This document shows, one piece after another, positions 1,709 through 32,433 of a DNA stretch of 39,374 nt. Every line of letters begins with the position of its first letter. The stretch's first letter is position 1. A program made the translations under genes and the position numbers. The DNA comes from a virus (Duplodnaviria; Heunggongvirae; Uroviricota; Caudoviricetes): positions 1 to 39,374 of IMG/VR virus record IMGVR_UViG_3300029009_000036, one strand, 5' to 3'. A model generated the notes under the pieces. The model ran no database searches and was not told where the DNA came from. It worked only from the letters and a program-made list of their open reading frames with translations.

Positions 1709-2056
1709 TAAACACGTAAAATCTGTAACGGCTGGAAATCATTCAATACTCGCACTATCGAAAGTTCACCAGCCAACCGCAGCGCGTTCTTGCATACGAC
1801 GTGGCTGCAGTCTCAACTCCGTCCCCCACCAATCATGATTGGGCAGTACCAGTACAGCACTAGTAAAAACTGGAAATAAGCAGTCTCAGCAAAATACCGG
1901 CCAGACGGTGAGAAGACAAAAAAGATACGCAAAGTAGCCGCGGCCCTTAGTGACATGAAATCCCGCTATACGGGCTTTTTTGTATCTGCACACGATTGAT
2001 TATTAGGTCCGTATAGCTAATAGTGGTCTTAACCTACATATAGAATCAGAGACTTT

Positions 2057-2752
2057 ATGAAAAAGGAAATACTCAAGGCTCTTTGCCCTACATGCGGTGG
2101 GTTACGTAACTGCACTGTGCATGGGAAGCTAACCACTAGCTGGGAGGATTCCCAATATCCAGTTTATGGGTACCATTACCATCACCTACTCCAATGCAAT
2201 GGCTGTGATACTGTCTTCTATCACCACAACGAACACTTCAGTGAGCATACTACCCACGAATATCGTGATGGTGAATTTGTAGAAACGCCTATAGATATGA
2301 TCACTACCTATCCTGCCGCTGAAACATTTCAAGCTCCGATATGGTTATCCAAGCTTGAATCAGTTGATCGTCAGCTCTTTCAAATATTTAATGAAATGTA
2401 TTCTTCATATACTTCTGACCATTTCATTCTTTCGTCCATCGGTTTACGGACGATTTTTGATCGAACTGCTGAACTGTTACAAATTCACCCCGGTTTGCCG
2501 CTTGGTGAAAAAGTTGAAAAATTAAAACAAGATGGAGTCATAGGCGACACTGAGGCATGCGTTATATCTTCAGTAATTGATGCAGGAAACGCCGCCGCAC
2601 ATCGCAGTTGGAGCCCGAATAAAAGTGAGTTCGAACAAATGCTAGAAGCTATAGAAAGTTTTGTCCAAAGAACTATCTTGGGCAAAAAATCACTTGAACA
2701 TATAACCAAACAACTCCCACCTCGGGTTACAAGACCTAAAAATAGTGCATAA
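2057..2752 (+). CDS. Hypothetical cargo protein: N-terminal Cys4 zinc ribbon plus C-terminal helical domain with GNAAAH motif (DUF4145/HEPN-like, unverified)
   Basis: 231 aa; CPTCGG...CNGC pair of CxxC motifs; C-terminal ...VIDAGNAAAHRSW... resembles the R/N..AH signature I associate with DUF4145/HEPN-type domains; lower GC than flanking phage genes. Confidence 0.6.
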   Translation: MKKEILKALCPTCGGLRNCTVHGKLTTSWEDSQYPVYGYHYHHLLQCNGCDTVFYHHNEHFSEHTTHEYRDGEFVETPIDMITTYPAAETFQAPIWLSKLESVDRQLFQIFNEMYSSYTSDHFILSSIGLRTIFDRTAELLQIHPGLPLGEKVEKLKQDGVIGDTEACVISSVIDAGNAAAHRSWSPNKSEFEQMLEAIESFVQRTILGKKSLEHITKQLPPRVTRPKNSA

Positions 2753-2778
2753 TCCGCGATCATCAATGTGGCGTAAGG

Positions 2779-3335
2779 CTATGGTTTACTTGCTACAGGG
2801 AATTTTTTATACACCGTTGAAATATCCAGATCATAAATCAGTGCGACTTGCTGCTGATATATTCCCGATTCAATCAACCTGCCAGCCTGCCCCCATTGTT
2901 CTACTGTCAGCTTTGGCTTTCGCCCACCGTTCCTCCCTTCTTGTCGTGCTGCGGCAAAGCCGCCCTAGTACGTTCGACAATAAACTCTCGCTCCATTTCA
3001 GCCAGGGCACCCATCACATGAAAGAAAAAGCGCCCCATTGGTGTGCTGGTATCAATAGCATCCGTCAGGCTGCGAAAATTAACGCCACGTTCGCGCAACT
3101 CTTCCACCAGCACGACAAGATGCCGCATACTGCGCCCCAGTCGGTCCAGTTTCCAGACCACCAGCGTGTCACCTGCCGATAATGTCCTGAGCAGCTTTTT
3201 CAGTCCTGGTCTGTCGGACTTTGTACCGCTTATCTTGTCTTCAAAAATCAGCTCACATCCTGCACAGTTCAACGCATTACGTTGTAGATCGGTGTTCTGG
3301 TCATTTGTTGATACGCGAACATAGCCAATAAGCAT
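2779..3335 (-). pseudogene. pin: Pin/Gin/Hin-family serine DNA invertase, frameshifted between catalytic and HTH domains
   Basis: ATG at 3335 with AGGAGG RBS; MLIGYVRVSTNDQNTDLQRNAL...LVVWKLDRLGRSMRHL is a canonical invertase catalytic domain; frame breaks near 2962-2968 (...VERTRAALPQHDKKGG...stop at 2907) while a shifted frame continues GGFAAARQEGRNGGKRPKLTVEQWGQAGRLIESGIYQQQVALIYDLDISTVYKKFPVASKP (HTH domain) to 2779. Confidence 0.75.
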
Positions 3336-3390
3336 GATAGCTCCTCCTGACAAAAACAGGAACGATGCCATTTGCGCGCTATTTCTGCAT

Positions 3391-3416
3391 TTTCATAAAC
3401 GTTGGTTTGGGAGAAG
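3391..3416. repeat. Invertase crossover site, left (gix/pix-like)
   Basis: tttcataaacgttggtttgggagaag; its reverse complement cttctcccaaaccaacgtttatgaaa matches 5224-5249 over ~20 bp; AAACC-NN-GGTTT core typical of gix/hix sites. Confidence 0.6.
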
Positions 3417-3754
3417 CGGCAAAAAGGAATGTGGGGACAGGGGCGAATCAGATACCTGATATGGGTAGCTTCACGCTTTCTGTTTCAGGTACTGGATATC
3501 AAAAATTACCATCTGGTTTTATTCTTCAGTGGGGCTCAATCGGCGCTCCAGGCATTGCACAGGATGTGGTAACCCATTTCCCGATTGCATTTCCGAACAG
3601 ATGTCTGCGTGTTTTGGTCTCACAAGACTACACACCAGATAGCGGGGCTGTTGGTTATATTGCCTGTGCAGGTTTTAGTCCCGACCCGGTTAAATTTATA
3701 TCCAGAGCCAGTACTCCAGGTCTCGGCGCTTCATTTTTAGCGTTAGGCTGTTAA
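3402..3754 (+). other. Alternative tail-fibre C-terminal coding segment (silent orientation, no own start)
   Basis: Open frame encoding ...[23 protein letters not shown]..., a tail-fibre C-terminal-like sequence, beginning at the left crossover site and followed by its own tfa gene. Confidence 0.5.
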
Positions 3755-24363: not shown

Positions 24364-24640
24364 CCGCAACAGCCACTTTGATATCTTCCTGGGTTCTCTG
24401 TGACTCCAGTGTGATCTGCTGTTTTGCATGCTGGTTAGCCTCCAGAACTGTATTGACGATTTGCAGTGATTGCAGGACGTTATTGGTAATGACAGTTGCC
24501 GATTTGGCATTTTGTACAGCCTCATCAGCACGTTTCTTTTCGTGCTGATATTTGCTGTAGTAGTGGTTGGCAGACCAGATGAAAGAACCAATGACAGTAA
24601 AGAAGAATGCAGCGATAACCAACTTATAGCTCAACTTCAT
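24248..24640 (-). CDS. i-spanin (Rz-like)
   Basis: 130 aa, ATG at 24640; N-terminal TM helix LVIAAFFFTVIGSFIW then coiled-coil periplasmic domain; follows endolysin. Confidence 0.75.
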   Translation of the reverse strand: MKLSYKLVIAAFFFTVIGSFIWSANHYYSKYQHEKKRADEAVQNAKSATVITNNVLQSLQIVNTVLEANQHAKQQITLESQRTQEDIKVAVADDDCASRPVPAVAADRLRKFANGLRERSGGTTASQPDF

Positions 24641-25100
24641 TTACCACCCCACCAGCCTCTTTAAACCGGGCAATCAGATCACCGATTTTATGTTCATACT
24701 GACCGTAACCAGCACCCGGCAATGAAGCCCAGATATTGCTGCAACGGTCGATTGCCTGACGGATATCACCGCGATCAATCATCGGCAAAGCGCCACGCTC
24801 TTTAATCTGTTGCAATGCCACAGCGTCCTGACTTTTGGGAGAGAAGTCTTTCAGGCCAAGCTGATTACGGTAGGCATCCCACCAACGGGAAAGAAGCTGG
24901 TAACGTCCGGCAGCTGTTGATTTGAGTTTGGGGTTTAGCGTGACAAGTTTGCGAGGGTGATCGGAGTAATCAGTAAACATTTCACCACCGACAATAACAT
25001 CATAACCGTGGTTACGTGTCGGTTGTCGCCCGTTATCCGTTCCTTCTGACCATGCAACCATATCCAGGAAAGCTTTACGCTGGGAATTTAGTACCTGCAT
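24624..25100 (-). CDS. Endolysin, lambda R-like lytic transglycosylase
   Basis: 158 aa; ...QRKAFLDMVAWSEGTDNGRQPTRNHGYDVIVGGEMFTDYSDHPRKLVTLNPKLKSTAAGRYQLLSRWWDAYR... near-identical in pattern to lambda R as recalled. Confidence 0.9.
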   Translation of the reverse strand: MQVLNSQRKAFLDMVAWSEGTDNGRQPTRNHGYDVIVGGEMFTDYSDHPRKLVTLNPKLKSTAAGRYQLLSRWWDAYRNQLGLKDFSPKSQDAVALQQIKERGALPMIDRGDIRQAIDRCSNIWASLPGAGYGQYEHKIGDLIARFKEAGGVVNEVEL

Positions 25101-25103
25101 AAA

Positions 25104-25445
25104 TTACTCCTTAGAGCCACCAAACTTGTTACCGATTACTCTCATTGCAGCCCCACGAATAGCATCGACACCGATCAACCCAACACCACCACCAATGGCA
25201 ACAGAAAGCGATTTAGGCCATCCGACATACTCAAGAGCGGATGCAAAAGTCAGCGTCAGAGCGCCGCAGAGCAAAATCTCGAGCGTTTTTCGCTTCCAGC
25301 CACCACCACCGCCAAAATAGGCAATGCGCAAGCCAGCCATAACGATCGACATAATTACTGCGCCCAGCGGTGTGTCTCCACGCCACCAGCTCTGTAACAA
25401 TTCAAGTAAGTCAGACCAGGAATGAGGATCGTTATGCATTTTCAT
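25104..25445 (-). CDS. Holin with dual-start motif
   Basis: ORF opens at GTG 25454, but ATG 25445 (GGAGGTG RBS) and ATG 25439 give the M-K-M dual start seen in lambda S; hydrophobic helices follow. Confidence 0.7.
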   Translation of the reverse strand: MKMHNDPHSWSDLLELLQSWWRGDTPLGAVIMSIVMAGLRIAYFGGGGGWKRKTLEILLCGALTLTFASALEYVGWPKSLSVAIGGGVGLIGVDAIRGAAMRVIGNKFGGSKE

Positions 25446-25537
25446 AATTCCCACCTCCGGTTATCGGAAGTGCAACGAGTGAAGGGAAAGAAGCTGGTTA
25501 TAGCGCTGAGTCGCAAAAGTTGCGTAGTGCACAAAAA

Positions 25538-25565
25538 AGGCCGCCCACAGGCAGCCTCTTTTTAT
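25538..25565. terminator. Hairpin with flanking A/T runs between Cys-rich gene and holin (bidirectional terminator-like)
   Basis: aggccgcc-caca-ggcagcct (one mismatch) flanked by aaaaaa and ctttttat. Confidence 0.45.
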
Positions 25566-25576
25566 AATTCATTGAG

Positions 25577-25819
25577 TTAACAACATTTAAATGCTGGTGG
25601 TATAGAAGGTTTTTCACCAGAACGACAAGCCGGACACCATGACTGAACGATATGCCTTCCGTCTCCCATATCCCTATAACCAAAGTCTATTGTTTTATAA
25701 AAAACGTGCACTCCGGCATCAGCAGAACATTTTGGGCAAGATTTATATTCAACGCCATCTTGTTCAACTTCTCGTGAATAACTTAATGACTGCTCACAAA
25801 CAGAACAACGCTCCACCAT
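25577..25819 (-). CDS. Small Cys-rich (putative zinc-binding) protein, first late gene after tR'
   Basis: 80 aa, ATG at 25819 with AGGAGAG RBS; CxxC at residues 5-8, 28-31, 62-65 plus C-terminal CC. Confidence 0.45.
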   Translation of the reverse strand: MVERCSVCEQSLSYSREVEQDGVEYKSCPKCSADAGVHVFYKTIDFGYRDMGDGRHIVQSWCPACRSGEKPSIPPAFKCC

Positions 25820-25969
25820 ATATGCTCTCCTGTTTTTGATAGAGATTTATGGGTAGCAATTCCATTCAAAAGAAACATTGAAGGGTGTCACTTTTTCAAA
25901 ATGAGCGTAGCTGGCTGCCAGTTTTTTGTACAACACACTTTAAGGAAGGAGAGCCTTAAAAACACAATT

Positions 25970-26000
25970 GACATCAATAAAAAACCGCTCGGTGGCGGTT
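25970..26000 (-). terminator. tR'-like intrinsic terminator of the short late-promoter transcript
   Basis: Stem aaaccgc/gcggttt with 6-nt loop followed on minus strand by UUUUAUU; ~45-70 nt downstream of the pR'-like promoter. Confidence 0.45.
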
Positions 26001-26047
26001 TCTTGAAGATTATCAACGGTAGACACACAAAGCCCATCGTTAGGAGA

Positions 26048-26076
26048 ATTCTAACCAAATTTTTTGAAAAATGCAA
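26048..26076 (-). promoter_or_regulatory. pR'-like late promoter (sigma70 type) immediately downstream of Q
   Basis: Minus strand TTGCAT (26076-26071), 17-bp spacer, TAGAAT (26053-26048). Confidence 0.5.
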
Positions 26077-26107
26077 GAATCATGTCGCCATCTTCGGCGA
26101 AAATCAT

Positions 26108-26860
26108 TTATCTCGTCACTTTTCTTAATTGCGCCTCAGCATATGCTTCTTCCTGCCAGCACTTTGTCACCAGTTTATCAATGACATCTGCATATCCTTT
26201 GTACCACTGATAATCCGTCAGGTCTGGTACCAGCTTCTGGACATGATGCCGCGCCAGTGTGGTTGGTAAACGGCTAAACCGATTTCCATTGCAACGCCCA
26301 CAAATCTTATAAACAGGCGTGCCATGAAGCCGGGTCCTTTTTTCATCCAGGACAATACCTTTACCCTTACACCCTCTGCACGCGGTGCTGACTTCTCCCT
26401 TACCATGACAATGCTGACATAGTTCCTTCACCCACTCTTCCTTGATAACAGATTCCCCGCTTCTGGAGTGTTTCACCACTTCGCGCAATACATTATGAGA
26501 TCCAGTACCAGCACAATGCTCACAGCGAGCCTTACTTGCCGCAGACCTGGAATAATCAGCAAAGGCAAAATTCACAAGGTAAGGGATGATCTGTAACCGG
26601 GTTTCTTCACTCAATTTGTTCAATGTCGGGTTATCCAGTGCCATCGCGTAATTGAGCAGACCTTCAATCGCAAATTGAGGATCCTGAACACCAACTTTTG
26701 CCAGGAATAAGGCAAACCCAAGCGGTGCTTTCGACTGCACCATCCCCTGCGCAGCCATCACATCCGTAATCGTTAAACCACCTGAGCCTGTCGCCGGTGC
26801 GTCATCGCTCAATTTTGGAGATTTTGGGGAGTAATATTTTGGTAAGGCTTCAAGGTTCAT
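26108..26860 (-). CDS. Late-gene antiterminator Q (QuuQ-like)
   Basis: ORF-track start 26902 is GTG; ATG at 26860 (MNLEALPKYY...) has GGAGA RBS and gives 250 aa; four CxxCxGxG zinc-finger repeats; lies between DUF968 gene and pR'/lysis cassette, as in E. coli Qin (ydfU-quuQ) from memory. Confidence 0.7.
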   Translation of the reverse strand: MNLEALPKYYSPKSPKLSDDAPATGSGGLTITDVMAAQGMVQSKAPLGFALFLAKVGVQDPQFAIEGLLNYAMALDNPTLNKLSEETRLQIIPYLVNFAFADYSRSAASKARCEHCAGTGSHNVLREVVKHSRSGESVIKEEWVKELCQHCHGKGEVSTACRGCKGKGIVLDEKRTRLHGTPVYKICGRCNGNRFSRLPTTLARHHVQKLVPDLTDYQWYKGYADVIDKLVTKCWQEEAYAEAQLRKVTR

Positions 26861-29089: not shown

Positions 29090-29412
29090 ACTTTCAGGTC
29101 CCTTTCATGTAACCAGTGGGTTGCACGCAGCCTTGCGTTTTCCTCCCCGGCAAGCAGTGCGCGGATAATCCCGACCGCCTCGCTGTCGTCGTCCTTCACC
29201 GCGGTATGAAGCGTTATCCCCCGGGCCACGCCACGCTTTATCGTGATGACGCCTTTTTTCTCCAGTGCGCGAAGATGCTCCACCGCTGCATTCACTGAAC
29301 GGTATCCCAGCATGGTTGCCACCTCCTGATTGGTTGGCGGGAAGCCACGTTCTTTCTGATAAGAAATCAGCATATCCAGCACCTGCTGCTGGCATTGAGT
29401 TAACGTCGTCAT
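29086..29412 (-). CDS. LexA DNA-binding-domain-only protein (no S24 peptidase domain)
   Basis: 108 aa; MTTLTQCQQQVLDMLISYQKERGFPPTNQEVATMLGYRSVNAAVEHLRALEKKGVITIKRGVARGITL aligns by eye with LexA N-terminal winged helix (MKALTARQQEVFDLI...[44 protein letters not shown]); C-terminus is unrelated and lacks Ser/Lys dyad region. Confidence 0.7.
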   Translation of the reverse strand: MTTLTQCQQQVLDMLISYQKERGFPPTNQEVATMLGYRSVNAAVEHLRALEKKGVITIKRGVARGITLHTAVKDDDSEAVGIIRALLAGEENARLRATHWLHERDLKV

Positions 29413-30062
29413 GCCGCCATCTCCCTGACCAGTTTTTCCGCCTGCTGGCGAACCTGCGCCAGAAACGCCTCACCACATGCCTCAAGTTCATCGCGCCCGA
29501 TGTAGCTGATTGCCGGTCCCTTCCAGGTCTTATCGAAAACAGCAATAGCACCAGCGAAGAAAGCGCCTGTCGGCACCTGCTTCTCATCCTTCGGGATAAA
29601 CCAGGCAGGCAGTTCAAAACCAATACGCCCGCGAATAAAAGCAATATGGTCCGCATCTTCCGGCCACCACACTTCGCTGGTGGCAGCTTTGATCAGGAAA
29701 ACATAGCGCCCACCCTTATCACGCATGGCACTGGCATGTTTCATGATGTAACGCATGCCGGTGATGTATTGCCCCTCATGCTGACTGGCGCGACTGTATG
29801 GGGGATTACCAAAGGCAGCCCCTTTAAGCTCCGCAAGACGTTCTGACCAGTCATGCGCCAGCGCGTTGTCTTCCGCCGTGTAATACGCAGCACATTTGGC
29901 GTTATCACCGTCAGTGAACAGATCCAGAACAAACGGGCCAAACAGGGTGTTAATTCCCCAGAAAATGTTGTCCGGCGTGCGCCACTGATCACCTACTTCC
30001 TTCAGTTCATGGGCTGGTTTGTTCCGCAGTTCCACCAGCGCCTGGCAATATTTATTACTCAT
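29409..30062 (-). CDS. Orphan DNA N6-adenine methyltransferase (phage Dam-like)
   Basis: ATG at 30062 overlaps upstream stop (TAATG); NPPY motif in ...FGNPPYSRASQ... Confidence 0.8.
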   Translation of the reverse strand: MSNKYCQALVELRNKPAHELKEVGDQWRTPDNIFWGINTLFGPFVLDLFTDGDNAKCAAYYTAEDNALAHDWSERLAELKGAAFGNPPYSRASQHEGQYITGMRYIMKHASAMRDKGGRYVFLIKAATSEVWWPEDADHIAFIRGRIGFELPAWFIPKDEKQVPTGAFFAGAIAVFDKTWKGPAISYIGRDELEACGEAFLAQVRQQAEKLVREMAA

Positions 30063-31604: not shown

Positions 31605-32433
31605 GACGATGCCCTCCGCTGATATTCAGGAGACGGTGAATATGAAAATTAGCCTTATCCGCCAAACGAATACGTTCAGCCTGCAATTTAAGAAGTGTTT
31701 CTACCAGAACCTGATGCGCCTGCGGATCCGAAAGAGTTACCTTGCGCAGAGCACGTAGTGCAGTTGTTACATAACTGAGTTTATGTAAGTCTTCATCATT
31801 CAGACGAGCGAGGGTTGGGAGAGTAGTCATGGTGACAGCCCCTATGTTGAATTCAAAGAACTCACCACATGGGACGCCAATCACAGAGGTGGTGAGACGT
31901 ACAGGGTTGGCGTAACCGGTCAACATAGAACCCGGCGCATCTTGCGATGCCCCTGCACGCCCCACCATAATTTGGACGTAGCAATGCTCATGATACGAAA
32001 AAACCGCATGAGCGCGGTTATGCTCTATATTGAATTCCAGGACGCCAATCCCGACACCCGCTTTATAAGGTGCCTGAACAGTGTAACGTCCCGGAATGGC
32101 AGAATCAATGTGCTGGTGGTCCTTCACACTCAACAAAATCACGCCTGAATTTCCACAAAGGACTAAAGCACTCATGCGGGTAGTCTTTGCGAAGATAGAT
32201 AACGCGCTGTGTTTCTGGCTCCCAACGAATAACATGAACATAAAGTCCTCTTCCGTCACGAAACCAGCGGTTAAGTTCCTGCACAACTCGCCCCCCACAG
32301 TCAGGTAAAGTTCTCTGTGGTTACTTACAGCCAGGTGATTTGGTAATCTGCATTCATGCCGTAACAACAGGTGTTCAGCGACGCTGACCACCAGCTGTTG
32401 CGACAAACGGTTATTTGCCGTTAAACTGTTCAT
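31597..32433 (-). CDS. Hypothetical early protein
   Basis: 278 aa, ATG at 32433; no domain recognised by eye. Confidence 0.5.
   Translation of the reverse strand: MNSLTANNRLSQQLVVSVAEHLLLRHECRLPNHLAVSNHRELYLTVGGELCRNLTAGFVTEEDFMFMLFVGSQKHSALSIFAKTTRMSALVLCGNSGVILLSVKDHQHIDSAIPGRYTVQAPYKAGVGIGVLEFNIEHNRAHAVFSYHEHCYVQIMVGRAGASQDAPGSMLTGYANPVRLTTSVIGVPCGEFFEFNIGAVTMTTLPTLARLNDEDLHKLSYVTTALRALRKVTLSDPQAHQVLVETLLKLQAERIRLADKANFHIHRLLNISGGHRHA

What the first reader, a model, noticed from the sequence alone, without database searches (positions are those of the whole stretch)
25577..26076. pR'/tR'-like late switch followed by an extra Cys-rich gene ahead of the holin
A strong promoter (TTGCAT-N17-TAGAAT) sits just after Q and an intrinsic terminator follows ~45-70 nt later, the classic Q-antitermination layout. 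Unusually, the first downstream gene is an 80-aa protein with CxxC at residues 5-8, 28-31, 62-65 and a C-terminal CC, then a second hairpin before the holin.
Basis: partly seen in the sequence, partly recalled or inferred. Interest (0 to 1): 0.35.

Follow-up and report, generated by a model that had tools for sequence, protein, structure and literature searches.

The report
Lambda-type late switch plus small zinc-protein cassette
This is an ordinary lambda-style "Q" late-gene switch in an E. coli prophage, joined to a conserved but uncharacterised 80-residue zinc-binding protein gene that carries its own terminator and sits just ahead of the lysis genes.

Summary
A lambda-family Q gene (26860-26108) is followed by a promoter (TTGCAT-17-TAGAAT). 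Six bases later comes AACGATGGG, identical in sequence and spacing to the sigma-dependent pause element of lambda pR'. A hairpin plus U-run ends about 62 nt from the predicted start.

Next comes an 80-aa ORF (25819-25577), then a second strong terminator (25562-25533), then a lambda-type holin.

The ORF is a real gene. It matches phrog_7682 over its full length, has homologues down to about 55% identity, and has a median dN/dS of 0.12. Conserved residues are C5, C8, C28, C31, H38, C62, C65 and C79. The final "CC" is not conserved.

The gene always travels with its own terminator. It is found behind two unrelated Q families and ahead of several unrelated holin families, so it is an autonomous, low-GC, moron-like cassette.

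In most relatives it lies between a 933W-type pR' and the first terminator, so it should be made without Q. In this window a tR' precedes it, so it should be Q-dependent. Both readings are inferred.

Function is unknown. The same domain forms the N-terminus of McrA-like HNH nucleases, which points to DNA targeting and a role in phage-host conflict. The switch is textbook; the protein family is uncharacterised.

The parts
26108..26860 (-). Q antiterminator gene of the Q-lambda family (250 aa from MNLEAL...). It carries a 48-residue CxxCxGxG-rich insertion in the zinc-ribbon arm.
   Evidence: Pfam PF03589, E = 2.2e-53, and phrog_127. It is 35% identical to lambda Q, E = 3e-42, and the insertion appears as a gap in lambda. 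RefSeq annotates it as 'antitermination protein'.
26048..26076 (-). pR'-like late promoter: -35 TTGCAT (26076-26071), 17-nt spacer, -10 TAGAAT (26053-26048).
   Evidence: Read from the sequence. It aligns with lambda pR' (TTGACT-17-TAAATT), and the spacer is partly shared. It was not called by the consensus scan because the -35 matches only 3 of 6.
26033..26041 (-). Sigma-dependent pause element AACGATGGG. The predicted transcription start is the first A (26041), by analogy with lambda.
   Evidence: It is identical to lambda and sits at the same 6-nt distance from the -10. It is also conserved in a prophage with the same Q but different downstream cargo. The role of this element is taken from PMC9388147.
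25979..26004 (-). tR'-like intrinsic terminator: 10-bp stem, 6-nt loop, U6 run. The predicted Q-independent transcript is about 62 nt.
   Evidence: RNA fold of 26041-25972: -21.2 kcal/mol, z = -2.7. My own terminator scan found it at -183 from the ORF start. The block shared with other prophages carrying this Q ends just after it.
25935..25972 (-). Mosaic junction between the Q-pR'-tR' module and the ORF80 cassette.
   Evidence: A three-way alignment shows L002 shares the window's sequence up to about 25972, and L001 shares it from about 25935 onward. The megablast coverage breakpoints agree.
25827..25831 (-). Shine-Dalgarno AGGAG, 7 nt before the ORF80 ATG.
   Evidence: Read from the sequence. 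AGGAG/GGAG is kept in all relatives listed.
25577..25819 (-). ORF80: an 80-aa protein with two predicted zinc sites (phrog_7682; WP_001306866.1, 'hypothetical protein').
   Evidence: phrog_7682 match E = 7e-60 over the full length. There are 20 or more protein clusters and 59 IMG/VR loci. C5, C8, C28, C31 and H38 are invariant in the close family; C62, C65 and C79 are nearly invariant; across the wider 34-sequence alignment only C28, C31, C62 and C65 of these are invariant and the rest nearly so. Median dN/dS is 0.12. The AF2 model has pLDDT 84.
25533..25562 (-). Intrinsic terminator belonging to the ORF80 cassette: 13-bp stem, GUGG loop, U-run.
   Evidence: The 61-nt stretch containing this hairpin folds at -21.2 kcal/mol, z = -3.6. 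An equivalent terminator lies 7-23 nt after the stop codon in 34 of 36 distinct loci, with compensatory stem changes.
25104..25445 (-). Lambda-family class I holin S, with the MKM dual start.
   Evidence: Pfam PF05106, E = 5e-28, and phrog_126. It is 93-95% identical in DNA to the S genes of SfV/SfII.
24624..25100 (-). Endolysin (GH24 lysozyme), the next late gene.
   Evidence: RefSeq annotation of the near-identical prophage, and annotated as lysin in SfV/SfII.

Best explanation
The locus is a lambda-type Q-dependent late-gene switch joined by mosaic recombination to a self-contained 'small gene plus terminator' cassette.

How the switch works (inferred from lambda):
- RNA polymerase starts at pR', about position 26041, and pauses at the -10-like AACGAT.
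- Without Q it stops at the tR' hairpin, giving a transcript of roughly 62 nt.
- Once the lambda-family Q protein has loaded at the pause, polymerase reads through tR'. It transcribes ORF80, reads through the cassette's own terminator, and continues into holin, endolysin, spanin and the structural genes.
- So in this phage ORF80 is the first protein of the late transcript, and its expression should depend on Q.

What the cassette is:
- ORF80 is not part of the antitermination or lysis machinery. It is an autonomous, low-GC, moron-like accessory gene.
- It encodes a small protein with two predicted zinc sites: C5/C8/C28/C31, and C62/C65/C79 probably with H38.

The more common arrangement in relatives:
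- In most relatives the same cassette follows a 933W/21-type pR' with no terminator in between.
- There its terminator is the first one after pR'. The gene would then be made from the Q-independent leader transcript, and its terminator would double as tR'.

Likely function (weakest step):
- The same domain is the N-terminal module of McrA-like HNH nucleases. It is also fused to DndB-like and NOV_C domains.
- The most likely biochemical role is therefore nucleic-acid or target recognition.
- The most likely biological role is in phage-host or phage-phage conflict, for example anti-restriction or superinfection defence.
For: Switch:
- Q belongs to the Q-lambda family (family definitions).
- pR', the spacer and AACGATGGG align with lambda.
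- tR' folds well and marks the end of the block shared with other prophages that have this Q.

Real gene:
- Full-length PHROG match.
- Homologues down to about 55% identity with conserved Cys/His residues.
- Median dN/dS of 0.12 over 189 pairs.
- Strong RBS.
- The exact sequence is found on at least 1000 contigs of E. coli, Salmonella and other hosts.

Autonomous cassette:
- A terminator follows the gene in 34 of 36 distinct loci, with covarying stems.
- It occurs behind both PF03589 and PF06530 Q genes.
- It occurs ahead of lambda-S, P21-S, Phage_holin_8 and 3TM holins.
- It is absent from phages that share the same flanks.
- GC drops to 38-40% against 47-51% in the flanks.

Leader placement in relatives:
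- A conserved ~45-nt element upstream of the gene is homologous to the annotated pR'/qut of 933W. The same element precedes a terminator and stx or holin genes in Stx2a_1447, Stx1 phages and SfII.
- Of 21 loci with this element, 20 have no terminator in the 97-120 nt leader.
- The Q stop codon abuts or overlaps reverse-strand cargo, leaving no room for pR' there.

Domain link:
- The profile search finds 277 representative proteins.
- Fusions carry HNH (seven proteins), DndB or NOV_C domains.
- P0119's HNH half matches McrA structure 6ghc.
Against: - No transcript data were available. The promoter, start site, pausing, termination and Q-dependence are all inferred from sequence homology.
- The -35 is weak (3 of 6).
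- A weak promoter inside the cassette (TTGTAC-18-TACGCT, 25928-25899) cannot be excluded. If active, it would make ORF80 partly Q-independent here.
- The function is not established. There is no significant Pfam, NCBIfam, PADLOC, PDB or BFVD match.
- Zinc binding is predicted, not shown.
- The inference from the domain fusions (DNA targeting, conflict role) is indirect.
- ORF80 has no tblastn match in 50,697 deposited phage genomes. Evidence for it in active, plaque-forming phages is therefore missing.
Confidence: 0.7

Rival explanations
1. ORF80 is a lysogen-expressed defence or exclusion factor (classical lysogenic conversion). It would be made continuously from the constitutive pR' leader in relatives, and from terminator leak-through or a weak internal promoter here. 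It would protect the host against other phages, rather than help this phage during lytic growth.
For: - In most relatives the gene lies before the first terminator after pR'.
- The slot next to it holds reverse-strand candidate defence genes: PADLOC PDC-S20 at 9e-150, PDC-S42, PDC-S33, and RelA_SpoT + NA37.
- Distant stand-alone homologues sit in non-prophage islands beside BstA/AbiE, a NERD protein, or a resolvase/RadC.
Against: - In this window a good terminator precedes the gene.
- There is no PADLOC hit for ORF80 itself.
- An 80-aa zinc module with no effector domain is an unlikely defence system on its own.
- ORF80 occurs with and without the adjacent cargo.
Confidence: 0.2
2. ORF80 is a late-gene or lysis regulator. 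For example, it could be a Com-like zinc-finger translational activator or a holin-timing factor acting on the downstream lysis cassette or on a neighbouring DNA methyltransferase.
For: - It is the gene immediately upstream of the holin here and in many relatives.
- One distant homologue is labelled 'phage FluMu protein Com' by its source.
- In 8 loci a DNA methyltransferase (N6_N4_Mtase or MT-A70) is next to it, or nearly so (two small ORFs intervene in L064/L065). This is reminiscent of com-mom.
Against: - The gene is paired with at least four unrelated holin families.
- It is often separated from the holin by other genes.
- A terminator separates it from whatever follows.
- No Pfam match to Com, Ogr/Delta or Lar families at E <= 1.
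- Homologues exist outside prophages.
Confidence: 0.08
3. The ORF is incidental. On this view the functional elements are only the two terminators, a double stop that tightens the late switch, and the 80-codon frame is not expressed.
For: - Lambda also has a second hairpin plus T-run between tR' and S.
- Some RefSeq annotations of near-identical loci omit the gene (H30, H34, H35, H38).
Against: - dN/dS is 0.12.
- The frame stays open and the Cys/His pattern is invariant across loci whose DNA has diverged to saturation at synonymous sites.
- The RBS is conserved.
- The domain recurs inside larger proteins.
Confidence: 0.02

Closest known systems
Bacteriophage lambda Q / pR' / 6S RNA / tR' late regulatory cassette
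   Same: - Q belongs to the same family (PF03589, 35% identity).
- pR' lies directly after Q, with the same 17-nt spacer.
- The AACGATGGG pause element is identical, 6 nt after the -10.
- An intrinsic terminator follows, then a class I holin with a dual start.
   Different: - The leader is about 62 nt, against 194 nt in lambda.
- The -35 is weaker.
- Q carries a 48-residue CxxCxGxG insertion in its zinc-ribbon arm.
- An 80-aa gene with its own terminator lies between tR' and S. Lambda has only non-coding sequence and the doubtful orf-64 there.
933W / phage 21-type pR' cassettes of Stx and SfII-like phages, with cargo between Q and lysis genes
   Same: - Most ORF80 relatives use this promoter type.
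- The cargo-rich slot between Q and the holin is the same one that holds stx, tRNAs and a DNA methylase in Stx phages.
   Different: - The window uses the lambda-type Q and pR' instead.
- In Stx/SfII phages a terminator follows pR' within about 25 nt. In ORF80 loci that terminator is missing and the first one comes after ORF80.
Morons (Juhala/Hendrix sense): autonomous accessory genes inserted between conserved phage genes
   Same: - Presence/absence polymorphism between otherwise similar phages.
- Own terminator.
- Lower GC than the neighbouring genes.
   Different: No convincing promoter of its own was found. It appears to borrow pR'.
McrA-like type IV HNH restriction nucleases carrying an N-terminal ORF80-like zinc domain
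   Same: The same ~75-residue domain signature appears: CxxC...KSCPxCS...H...FG...QSxCxxCR...C.
   Different: ORF80 is the domain alone, with no nuclease. The fused proteins are uncharacterised themselves; only their HNH half resembles McrA.

Membership tests
Q-lambda-type antitermination cassette | [quoted passage not shown] | tested here: met
   PF03589 E = 2.2e-53. 35% identity to lambda Q, E = 3e-42. Family definition taken.
Q-lambda-type antitermination cassette | Promoter pR' immediately downstream of the Q gene | tested here: met
   TTGCAT-17-TAGAAT begins 32 nt after the Q stop codon and aligns with lambda pR'. Activity was not measured.
Q-lambda-type antitermination cassette | Sigma-dependent pause element (-10-like) in the initially transcribed region | tested here: met
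   AACGATGGG is identical to lambda and at the same offset. It is conserved in L002.
Q-lambda-type antitermination cassette | Q-binding element between the -35 and -10 | tested here: inconclusive
   The spacer is partly similar to lambda's (AAAATTTGGT against AAAATTGGGT). However, the Q proteins are only 35% identical and no binding data exist.
Q-lambda-type antitermination cassette | Intrinsic terminator between pR' and the late genes | tested here: met
   Hairpin plus U6 at 26004-25979. A second terminator lies at 25562-25533.
Q-lambda-type antitermination cassette | Q-dependent readthrough of the terminator | not testable with these tools
   Needs in vivo or in vitro transcription.
phrog_7682 (unknown function) | Full-length match to the family profile | tested here: met
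   E = 7.2e-60, residues 1-80 against profile positions 1-80 of 80.
Moron | Inserted between genes that are adjacent in related phages | tested here: met
   SfII has pR'-tR' followed directly by the holin. L002 has the same Q and pR'-tR' but a different small ORF.
Moron | Own terminator | tested here: met
   Present in 34 of 36 distinct loci.
Moron | Own promoter | tested here: inconclusive
   The scan found no consensus-like promoter on this strand. Only a weak TTGTAC-18-TACGCT was seen by eye.
Zinc-ribbon / treble-clef small proteins | Two pairs of metal ligands conserved, with the second pair at a helix N-terminus | tested here: met
   C28 and C31 are invariant and C5 and C8 invariant in the close family, nearly invariant in the wider alignment. 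The model places a helix at 29-35, and another at 63-66 after C62. Metal content was not measured.
Known small phage zinc-finger regulators (Ogr/Delta, Mu Com, Lar) | Sequence match to the family profile | tested here: not met
   None of these Pfam families appears at E <= 1. Lar-like phrog_6422 scores only E = 0.7.
Known anti-phage defence proteins (PADLOC) | Match to a defence-system profile | tested here: not met
   No hits at E <= 1.

The most novel reading that the evidence does not exclude
ORF80 may be a free-standing copy of the DNA- or target-recognition zinc domain that McrA-like type IV restriction nucleases carry at their N-terminus. Temperate phages would use it as a decoy or competitor (anti-restriction), or as a lysogen immunity factor. 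In the commoner 933W/21-type arrangement the gene has been built into the Q-independent pR' leader. The normally 'wasted' short leader transcript would then be a constitutive mRNA, and the gene's terminator would double as tR'.
Probability: 0.2. Interest if true: 0.6.

Novelty: new member of a known kind. Interest (0 to 1): 0.35.

Why it matters
The switch itself adds nothing new. It is a clean further example of the lambda Q/pR'/pause/tR' design, with a short leader.

The value lies in the passenger. It is a very widespread small zinc protein: the exact sequence occurs on at least 1000 contigs of E. coli and Salmonella. It is under strong purifying selection, has no assigned function, no Pfam family and no structural relative.

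Its position is always the start of the late operon, whatever the Q or holin type. In most relatives it is placed where it should be expressed without Q.

If its domain really is the targeting module of a class of HNH restriction nucleases, it offers a simple experimental handle on two things: that nuclease class, and a possible phage counter-measure. It would also show that a pR' leader can be a coding, constitutively expressed mRNA.

Tried and rejected
Searches for ORF80 that gave nothing useful:
- Pfam, NCBIfam and PADLOC gave only sub-threshold generic zinc-ribbon hits.
- PDB sequence searches, with the single protein and with a 34-sequence profile, found nothing significant.
- Foldseek of a good AF2 model (pLDDT 84) against PDB and BFVD found nothing at E <= 0.001. 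The best hit was a giant-virus protein at E = 0.07.
- tblastn against 50,697 GenBank phage genomes found no match.
- Rfam found nothing in 25,000-26,200.
- A literature search by accession, UniProt id and PHROG id found nothing.

Ideas considered and rejected:
- That ORF80 depends on the neighbouring reverse-strand defence cargo. Rejected because ORF80 occurs without the cargo (this window) and the cargo occurs without ORF80 (SfII, Stx phages).
- That ORF80 is tied to one Q or one holin family. Rejected.
- That the + strand ORF 25901-26128 (75 aa, overlapping pR') is a gene. It is seen only in near-identical sequences and is not annotated, so I treat it as spurious.

Technical notes:
- A link to DNA methyltransferases (24 of 55 loci have one within 4 kb) is too weak to use, because lambdoid phages often carry one.
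- The MAFFT/RNAalifold alignment of the terminators misaligned one clade, so I relied on per-sequence folds.
- The positive-control lines of my terminator script failed with a KeyError. The 933W, Stx2a and SfII terminators were instead read directly from sequence.

Full report
**1. What is in the sequence**

All features read on the minus strand.

- The 250-codon gene at 26860-26108 ends in TAA.
- A -35-like TTGCAT (26076-26071) begins 32 nt later. A 17-nt spacer, TAGAAT (26053-26048) and six more bases follow, and then AACGATGGG (26041-26033).
- A hairpin with a 10-bp stem followed by U6 occupies 26004-25979. The 70-nt stretch from 26041 folds at -21.2 kcal/mol, z = -2.7 against shuffles.
- About 160 nt further on, an AGGAG lies 7 nt before the ATG of an 80-codon ORF (25819-25577).
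- The ORF stop is followed 14 nt later by a 13-bp GC-rich hairpin and a U-run (25562-25533). The 61-nt stretch around it folds at -21.2 kcal/mol, z = -3.6.
- The lambda-family holin starts at 25445 with the MKM dual start (Pfam PF05106). The endolysin follows.

The generic promoter/terminator scan called neither this promoter nor these two terminators. Its threshold needs 4 of 6 in each hexamer, and TTGCAT scores 3 of 6, so 'strong promoter' is an overstatement. The motifs are also not significant on their own: AACGATGGG occurs twice in the window against 0.49 expected.

**2. Why it is nevertheless a real Q switch**

- The upstream gene is a Q-lambda-family antiterminator (PF03589, E = 2e-53; phrog_127).
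- It is 35% identical to lambda Q over its whole length. The exception is a 48-residue CxxCxGxG-rich insertion in the zinc-ribbon arm.
- Pfam PF03589 is the Q-lambda family and PF06530 is the Q21/933W family, according to Yin et al..
- The same papers define the cassette as the Q gene followed by pR', a sigma-dependent pause element, a terminator, and then the late genes.

Aligned with lambda, the window shows:

| Feature | Lambda | Window |
|---|---|---|
| -35 | TTGACT | TTGCAT |
| Spacer length | 17 nt | 17 nt |
| Spacer core | AAAATTGGGT | AAAATTTGGT |
| -10 | TAAATT | TAGAAT |
| Bases between the -10 and the pause element | 6 | 6 |
| Pause element | AACGATGGG | AACGATGGG |

In lambda the first A of that motif is the start of the 6S leader RNA, and AACGAT is the -10-like pause element (my knowledge, consistent).

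By analogy the start is at 26041, and the Q-independent transcript would end near 25980, about 62 nt long against 194 nt in lambda.

In E. coli genomes the Q-pR'-tR' block travels as a unit that ends just after the terminator. Many genomes match only bases 1-143 of a query that begins at the Q stop. One of them, L002, keeps the -10 and AACGATGGG but continues with a different small ORF and a different holin.

**3. The 80-aa ORF is a real gene**

- It matches phrog_7682 (unknown function) end to end, E = 7e-60.
- RefSeq annotates it as hypothetical protein WP_001306866.1.
- The exact sequence is present on at least 1000 contigs from E. coli, Salmonella and Morganella.
- A word-indexed search gave 20 clusters down to 57% identity.
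- IMG/VR gave 59 loci down to about 55% identity.
- In the close family C5, C8, C28, C31 and H38 are invariant, and C62, C65 and C79 nearly so. Residue 80 is usually K, so the 'C-terminal CC' is not a family feature.
- Pairwise Nei-Gojobori dN/dS has a median of 0.12 (range 0-0.33) over 189 pairs with dS between 0.1 and 2.5.
- AlphaFold2 with the family alignment gives a confident compact model: mean pLDDT 84, pTM 0.69. Short helices begin at C28-x2-C31 and at C62-x2-C65, the treble-clef arrangement.

I infer two zinc sites: C5/C8/C28/C31, and C62/C65/C79 with H38.

**4. It is an autonomous gene-plus-terminator cassette**

I compared 55 non-identical loci (36 distinct in their flanks).

- A GC-rich hairpin plus T-run lies 7-23 nt after the stop codon in 34 of 36 by a strict scan. 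The other two have imperfect versions.
- The stems differ by compensatory changes, for example GGCTGCC/GGCGGCC, GGCTCGC/GCGGGCC, GGCTCAC/GTGGGCC, GCCCTGGC/GCTGGGGC and GGCCACC/GGTGGTT.
- The cassette is found behind Q-lambda-family and Q21/933W-family Q genes.
- It is found in front of lambda-S, P21-S (PF04971), Phage_holin_8 and 3TM holins.
- It is sometimes separated from the holin by a DNA methyltransferase or other ORFs.
- Phages with the same flanks lack it (SfII; L002).
- GC falls to 38-40% across 25560-26160, against 47-51% on either side.
- In the window the left joint of the cassette lies at about 25935-25972. L001 has two unrelated genes upstream and shares the sequence from about 25935 onward.

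This is the behaviour of a moron, except that no promoter of its own is evident.

**5. The commoner arrangement in relatives**

In most diverse loci the gene order is:

DUF968, then Q (PF06530), then one to three reverse-strand cargo genes, then a conserved ~45-nt element (GCTAACGCGTACGCAAAAACTATCGTAACCTGTTAAGAGTGGTC), then a leader of roughly 100-120 nt, then ORF80, then the terminator, then the lysis genes.

- The Q stop codon abuts or overlaps the end of the reverse cargo, so pR' cannot lie there.
- The element is homologous to the region that GenBank annotates in 933W as 'pR' putative late promoter' and 'qut', followed there by a terminator.
- The same element occurs in Stx2a_1447, Stx1a phages and SfII. 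There it sits after reverse cargo, and in Stx2a_1447 and SfII a terminator follows about 25 nt later, ahead of stx or the holin.
- In the ORF80 loci that early terminator is absent. Of 21 loci with a strict match to the element, 20 have no terminator-like site in the leader, and the one exception is weak.
- I infer that in those phages ORF80 lies on the Q-independent pR' leader transcript and that its terminator acts as tR'.

The window is the minority design: a lambda-type Q/pR'/tR' has replaced the 933W-type promoter, so a terminator now precedes ORF80.

The reverse cargo is a variable slot that includes candidate defence genes. These are PADLOC PDC-S20 at 9e-150, PDC-S42 at 6e-37, PDC-S33, and a RelA_SpoT + NA37 pair. 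ORF80 and this cargo occur independently of each other.

**6. What the protein might do**

Direct searches found no named relative:

- Pfam, NCBIfam and PADLOC.
- PDB by sequence.
- PDB and BFVD by fold.
- tblastn against 50,697 deposited phage genomes.

An exhaustive profile search found 277 cluster representatives at E <= 1e-3.

- Most are stand-alone proteins of 70-100 aa.
- The domain is also the N-terminus of 200-370-aa proteins whose C-terminus is an HNH nuclease: P0073, P0083, P0086, P0089, P0119, P0122 and P0128.
- P0119's HNH half matches E. coli McrA, structure 6ghc, E = 1.7e-4.
- It is also the C-terminus of a DndB-like protein (P0080) and the N-terminus of a NOV_C protein (P0141).
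- In the two shortest fusions (P0083, P0122) it is the only domain besides HNH.

This suggests that the domain supplies target (probably DNA) recognition.

Distant stand-alone homologues lie outside prophages, in islands beside BstA and AbiE (Pectobacterium), a NERD protein and a transposase (Sporolactobacillus), or a resolvase and RadC (Aeromonas).

From this I infer a nucleic-acid or target-binding accessory protein acting in phage-host conflict. I cannot say whether it acts for the phage (anti-restriction decoy) or for the lysogen (defence).

A lysis-regulator or Com-like role is less likely. The reasons are the promiscuity of holin partners, the terminator separating it from downstream genes, and the absence of any profile match to Com, Ogr/Delta or Lar.

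**7. Verdict**

- The 'extra' gene is genuine, conserved and uncharacterised.
- Cargo in this slot is a familiar feature of lambdoid phages.
- The switch is already known biology. The cassette is a new, uncharacterised member of the moron class.
- The two points of modest interest are the coding-leader arrangement in relatives and the domain shared with McrA-like nucleases.
- Nothing here was tested experimentally. Promoter activity, pausing, termination, Q-dependence, translation, zinc binding and function are all inferred.

Noticed in passing
window 31885-31972 (-) and 31997-32073 (-): Rfam hits above gathering score to C4 antisense RNA (80 bits) and the isrK Hfq-binding RNA (60 bits), lying side by side in the early/immunity region. 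RefSeq annotates a protein gene 'ymfL' (31839-32390) across both of them. Either the CDS call or the RNA calls therefore deserve a look. This looks like a P1/P7- or Gifsy-1-style antisense-RNA immunity module.
   Followed up: no
window 26108-26860 (-), about residues 127-174 of Q: This Q-lambda-family protein has a 48-residue insertion, rich in CxxCxGxG (DnaJ-like) motifs, inside the zinc-ribbon 'arm'. In lambda Q that arm contacts DNA and the repositioned sigma region 4, according to PMC9388147. It is a YdfT-type Q.
   Followed up: partly
loci L004, L031-L065 (region -2400 to -170 from the ORF80 start); also L067, L068, L069: In 933W/21-type lambdoid prophages the Q gene and its pR' are separated by one to three reverse-strand cargo genes. 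These differ from phage to phage, and their 3' end abuts the Q stop codon. Several match PADLOC candidate defence families (PDC-S20, PDC-S42, PDC-S33) or are a RelA_SpoT + NA37 pair. This looks like a defence hotspot inserted between an antiterminator gene and its target promoter.
   Followed up: partly
window 25909-25923 (+ strand): A terminator-like hairpin plus T-run (AGCTGGCTGCCAGTT TTTTGTACAA) lies on the strand antisense to the late leader, just upstream of ORF80. The 933W-type leaders of relatives also carry a reverse-strand AT-rich hairpin plus T-run at a similar place. It may stop antisense transcription, or it may be chance.
   Followed up: no
window 25899-25928 (-): A weak promoter-like TTGTAC-18-TACGCT lies inside the part of the cassette shared with L001. 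There the -35 reads TTGAAC. It could give ORF80 some Q-independent expression. It falls below the scan threshold.
   Followed up: partly
window 1728-3617 (+): A 629-aa DUF262-domain protein lies next to a recombinase remnant at the tail-fibre end of the prophage, on the opposite strand to the structural genes. DUF262 is the GmrS-type domain of type IV restriction systems (my knowledge). This is probably a defence moron.
   Followed up: no
loci L043, L050-L052, L055, L056, L064, L065: A DNA methyltransferase gene (N6_N4_Mtase, or MT-A70 in L052) lies next to ORF80 in the late leader, directly in six of these loci and two small ORFs away in L064/L065. This matches the position of the 'DNA methylase' in Stx2a phages. 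The window's own N6-adenine methyltransferase is at 29409-30062.
   Followed up: partly
window 25901-26128 (+): A 75-codon ORF on the opposite strand overlaps pR' and the Q stop codon. It is seen only in near-identical sequences and is not annotated, so it is probably spurious.
   Followed up: partly
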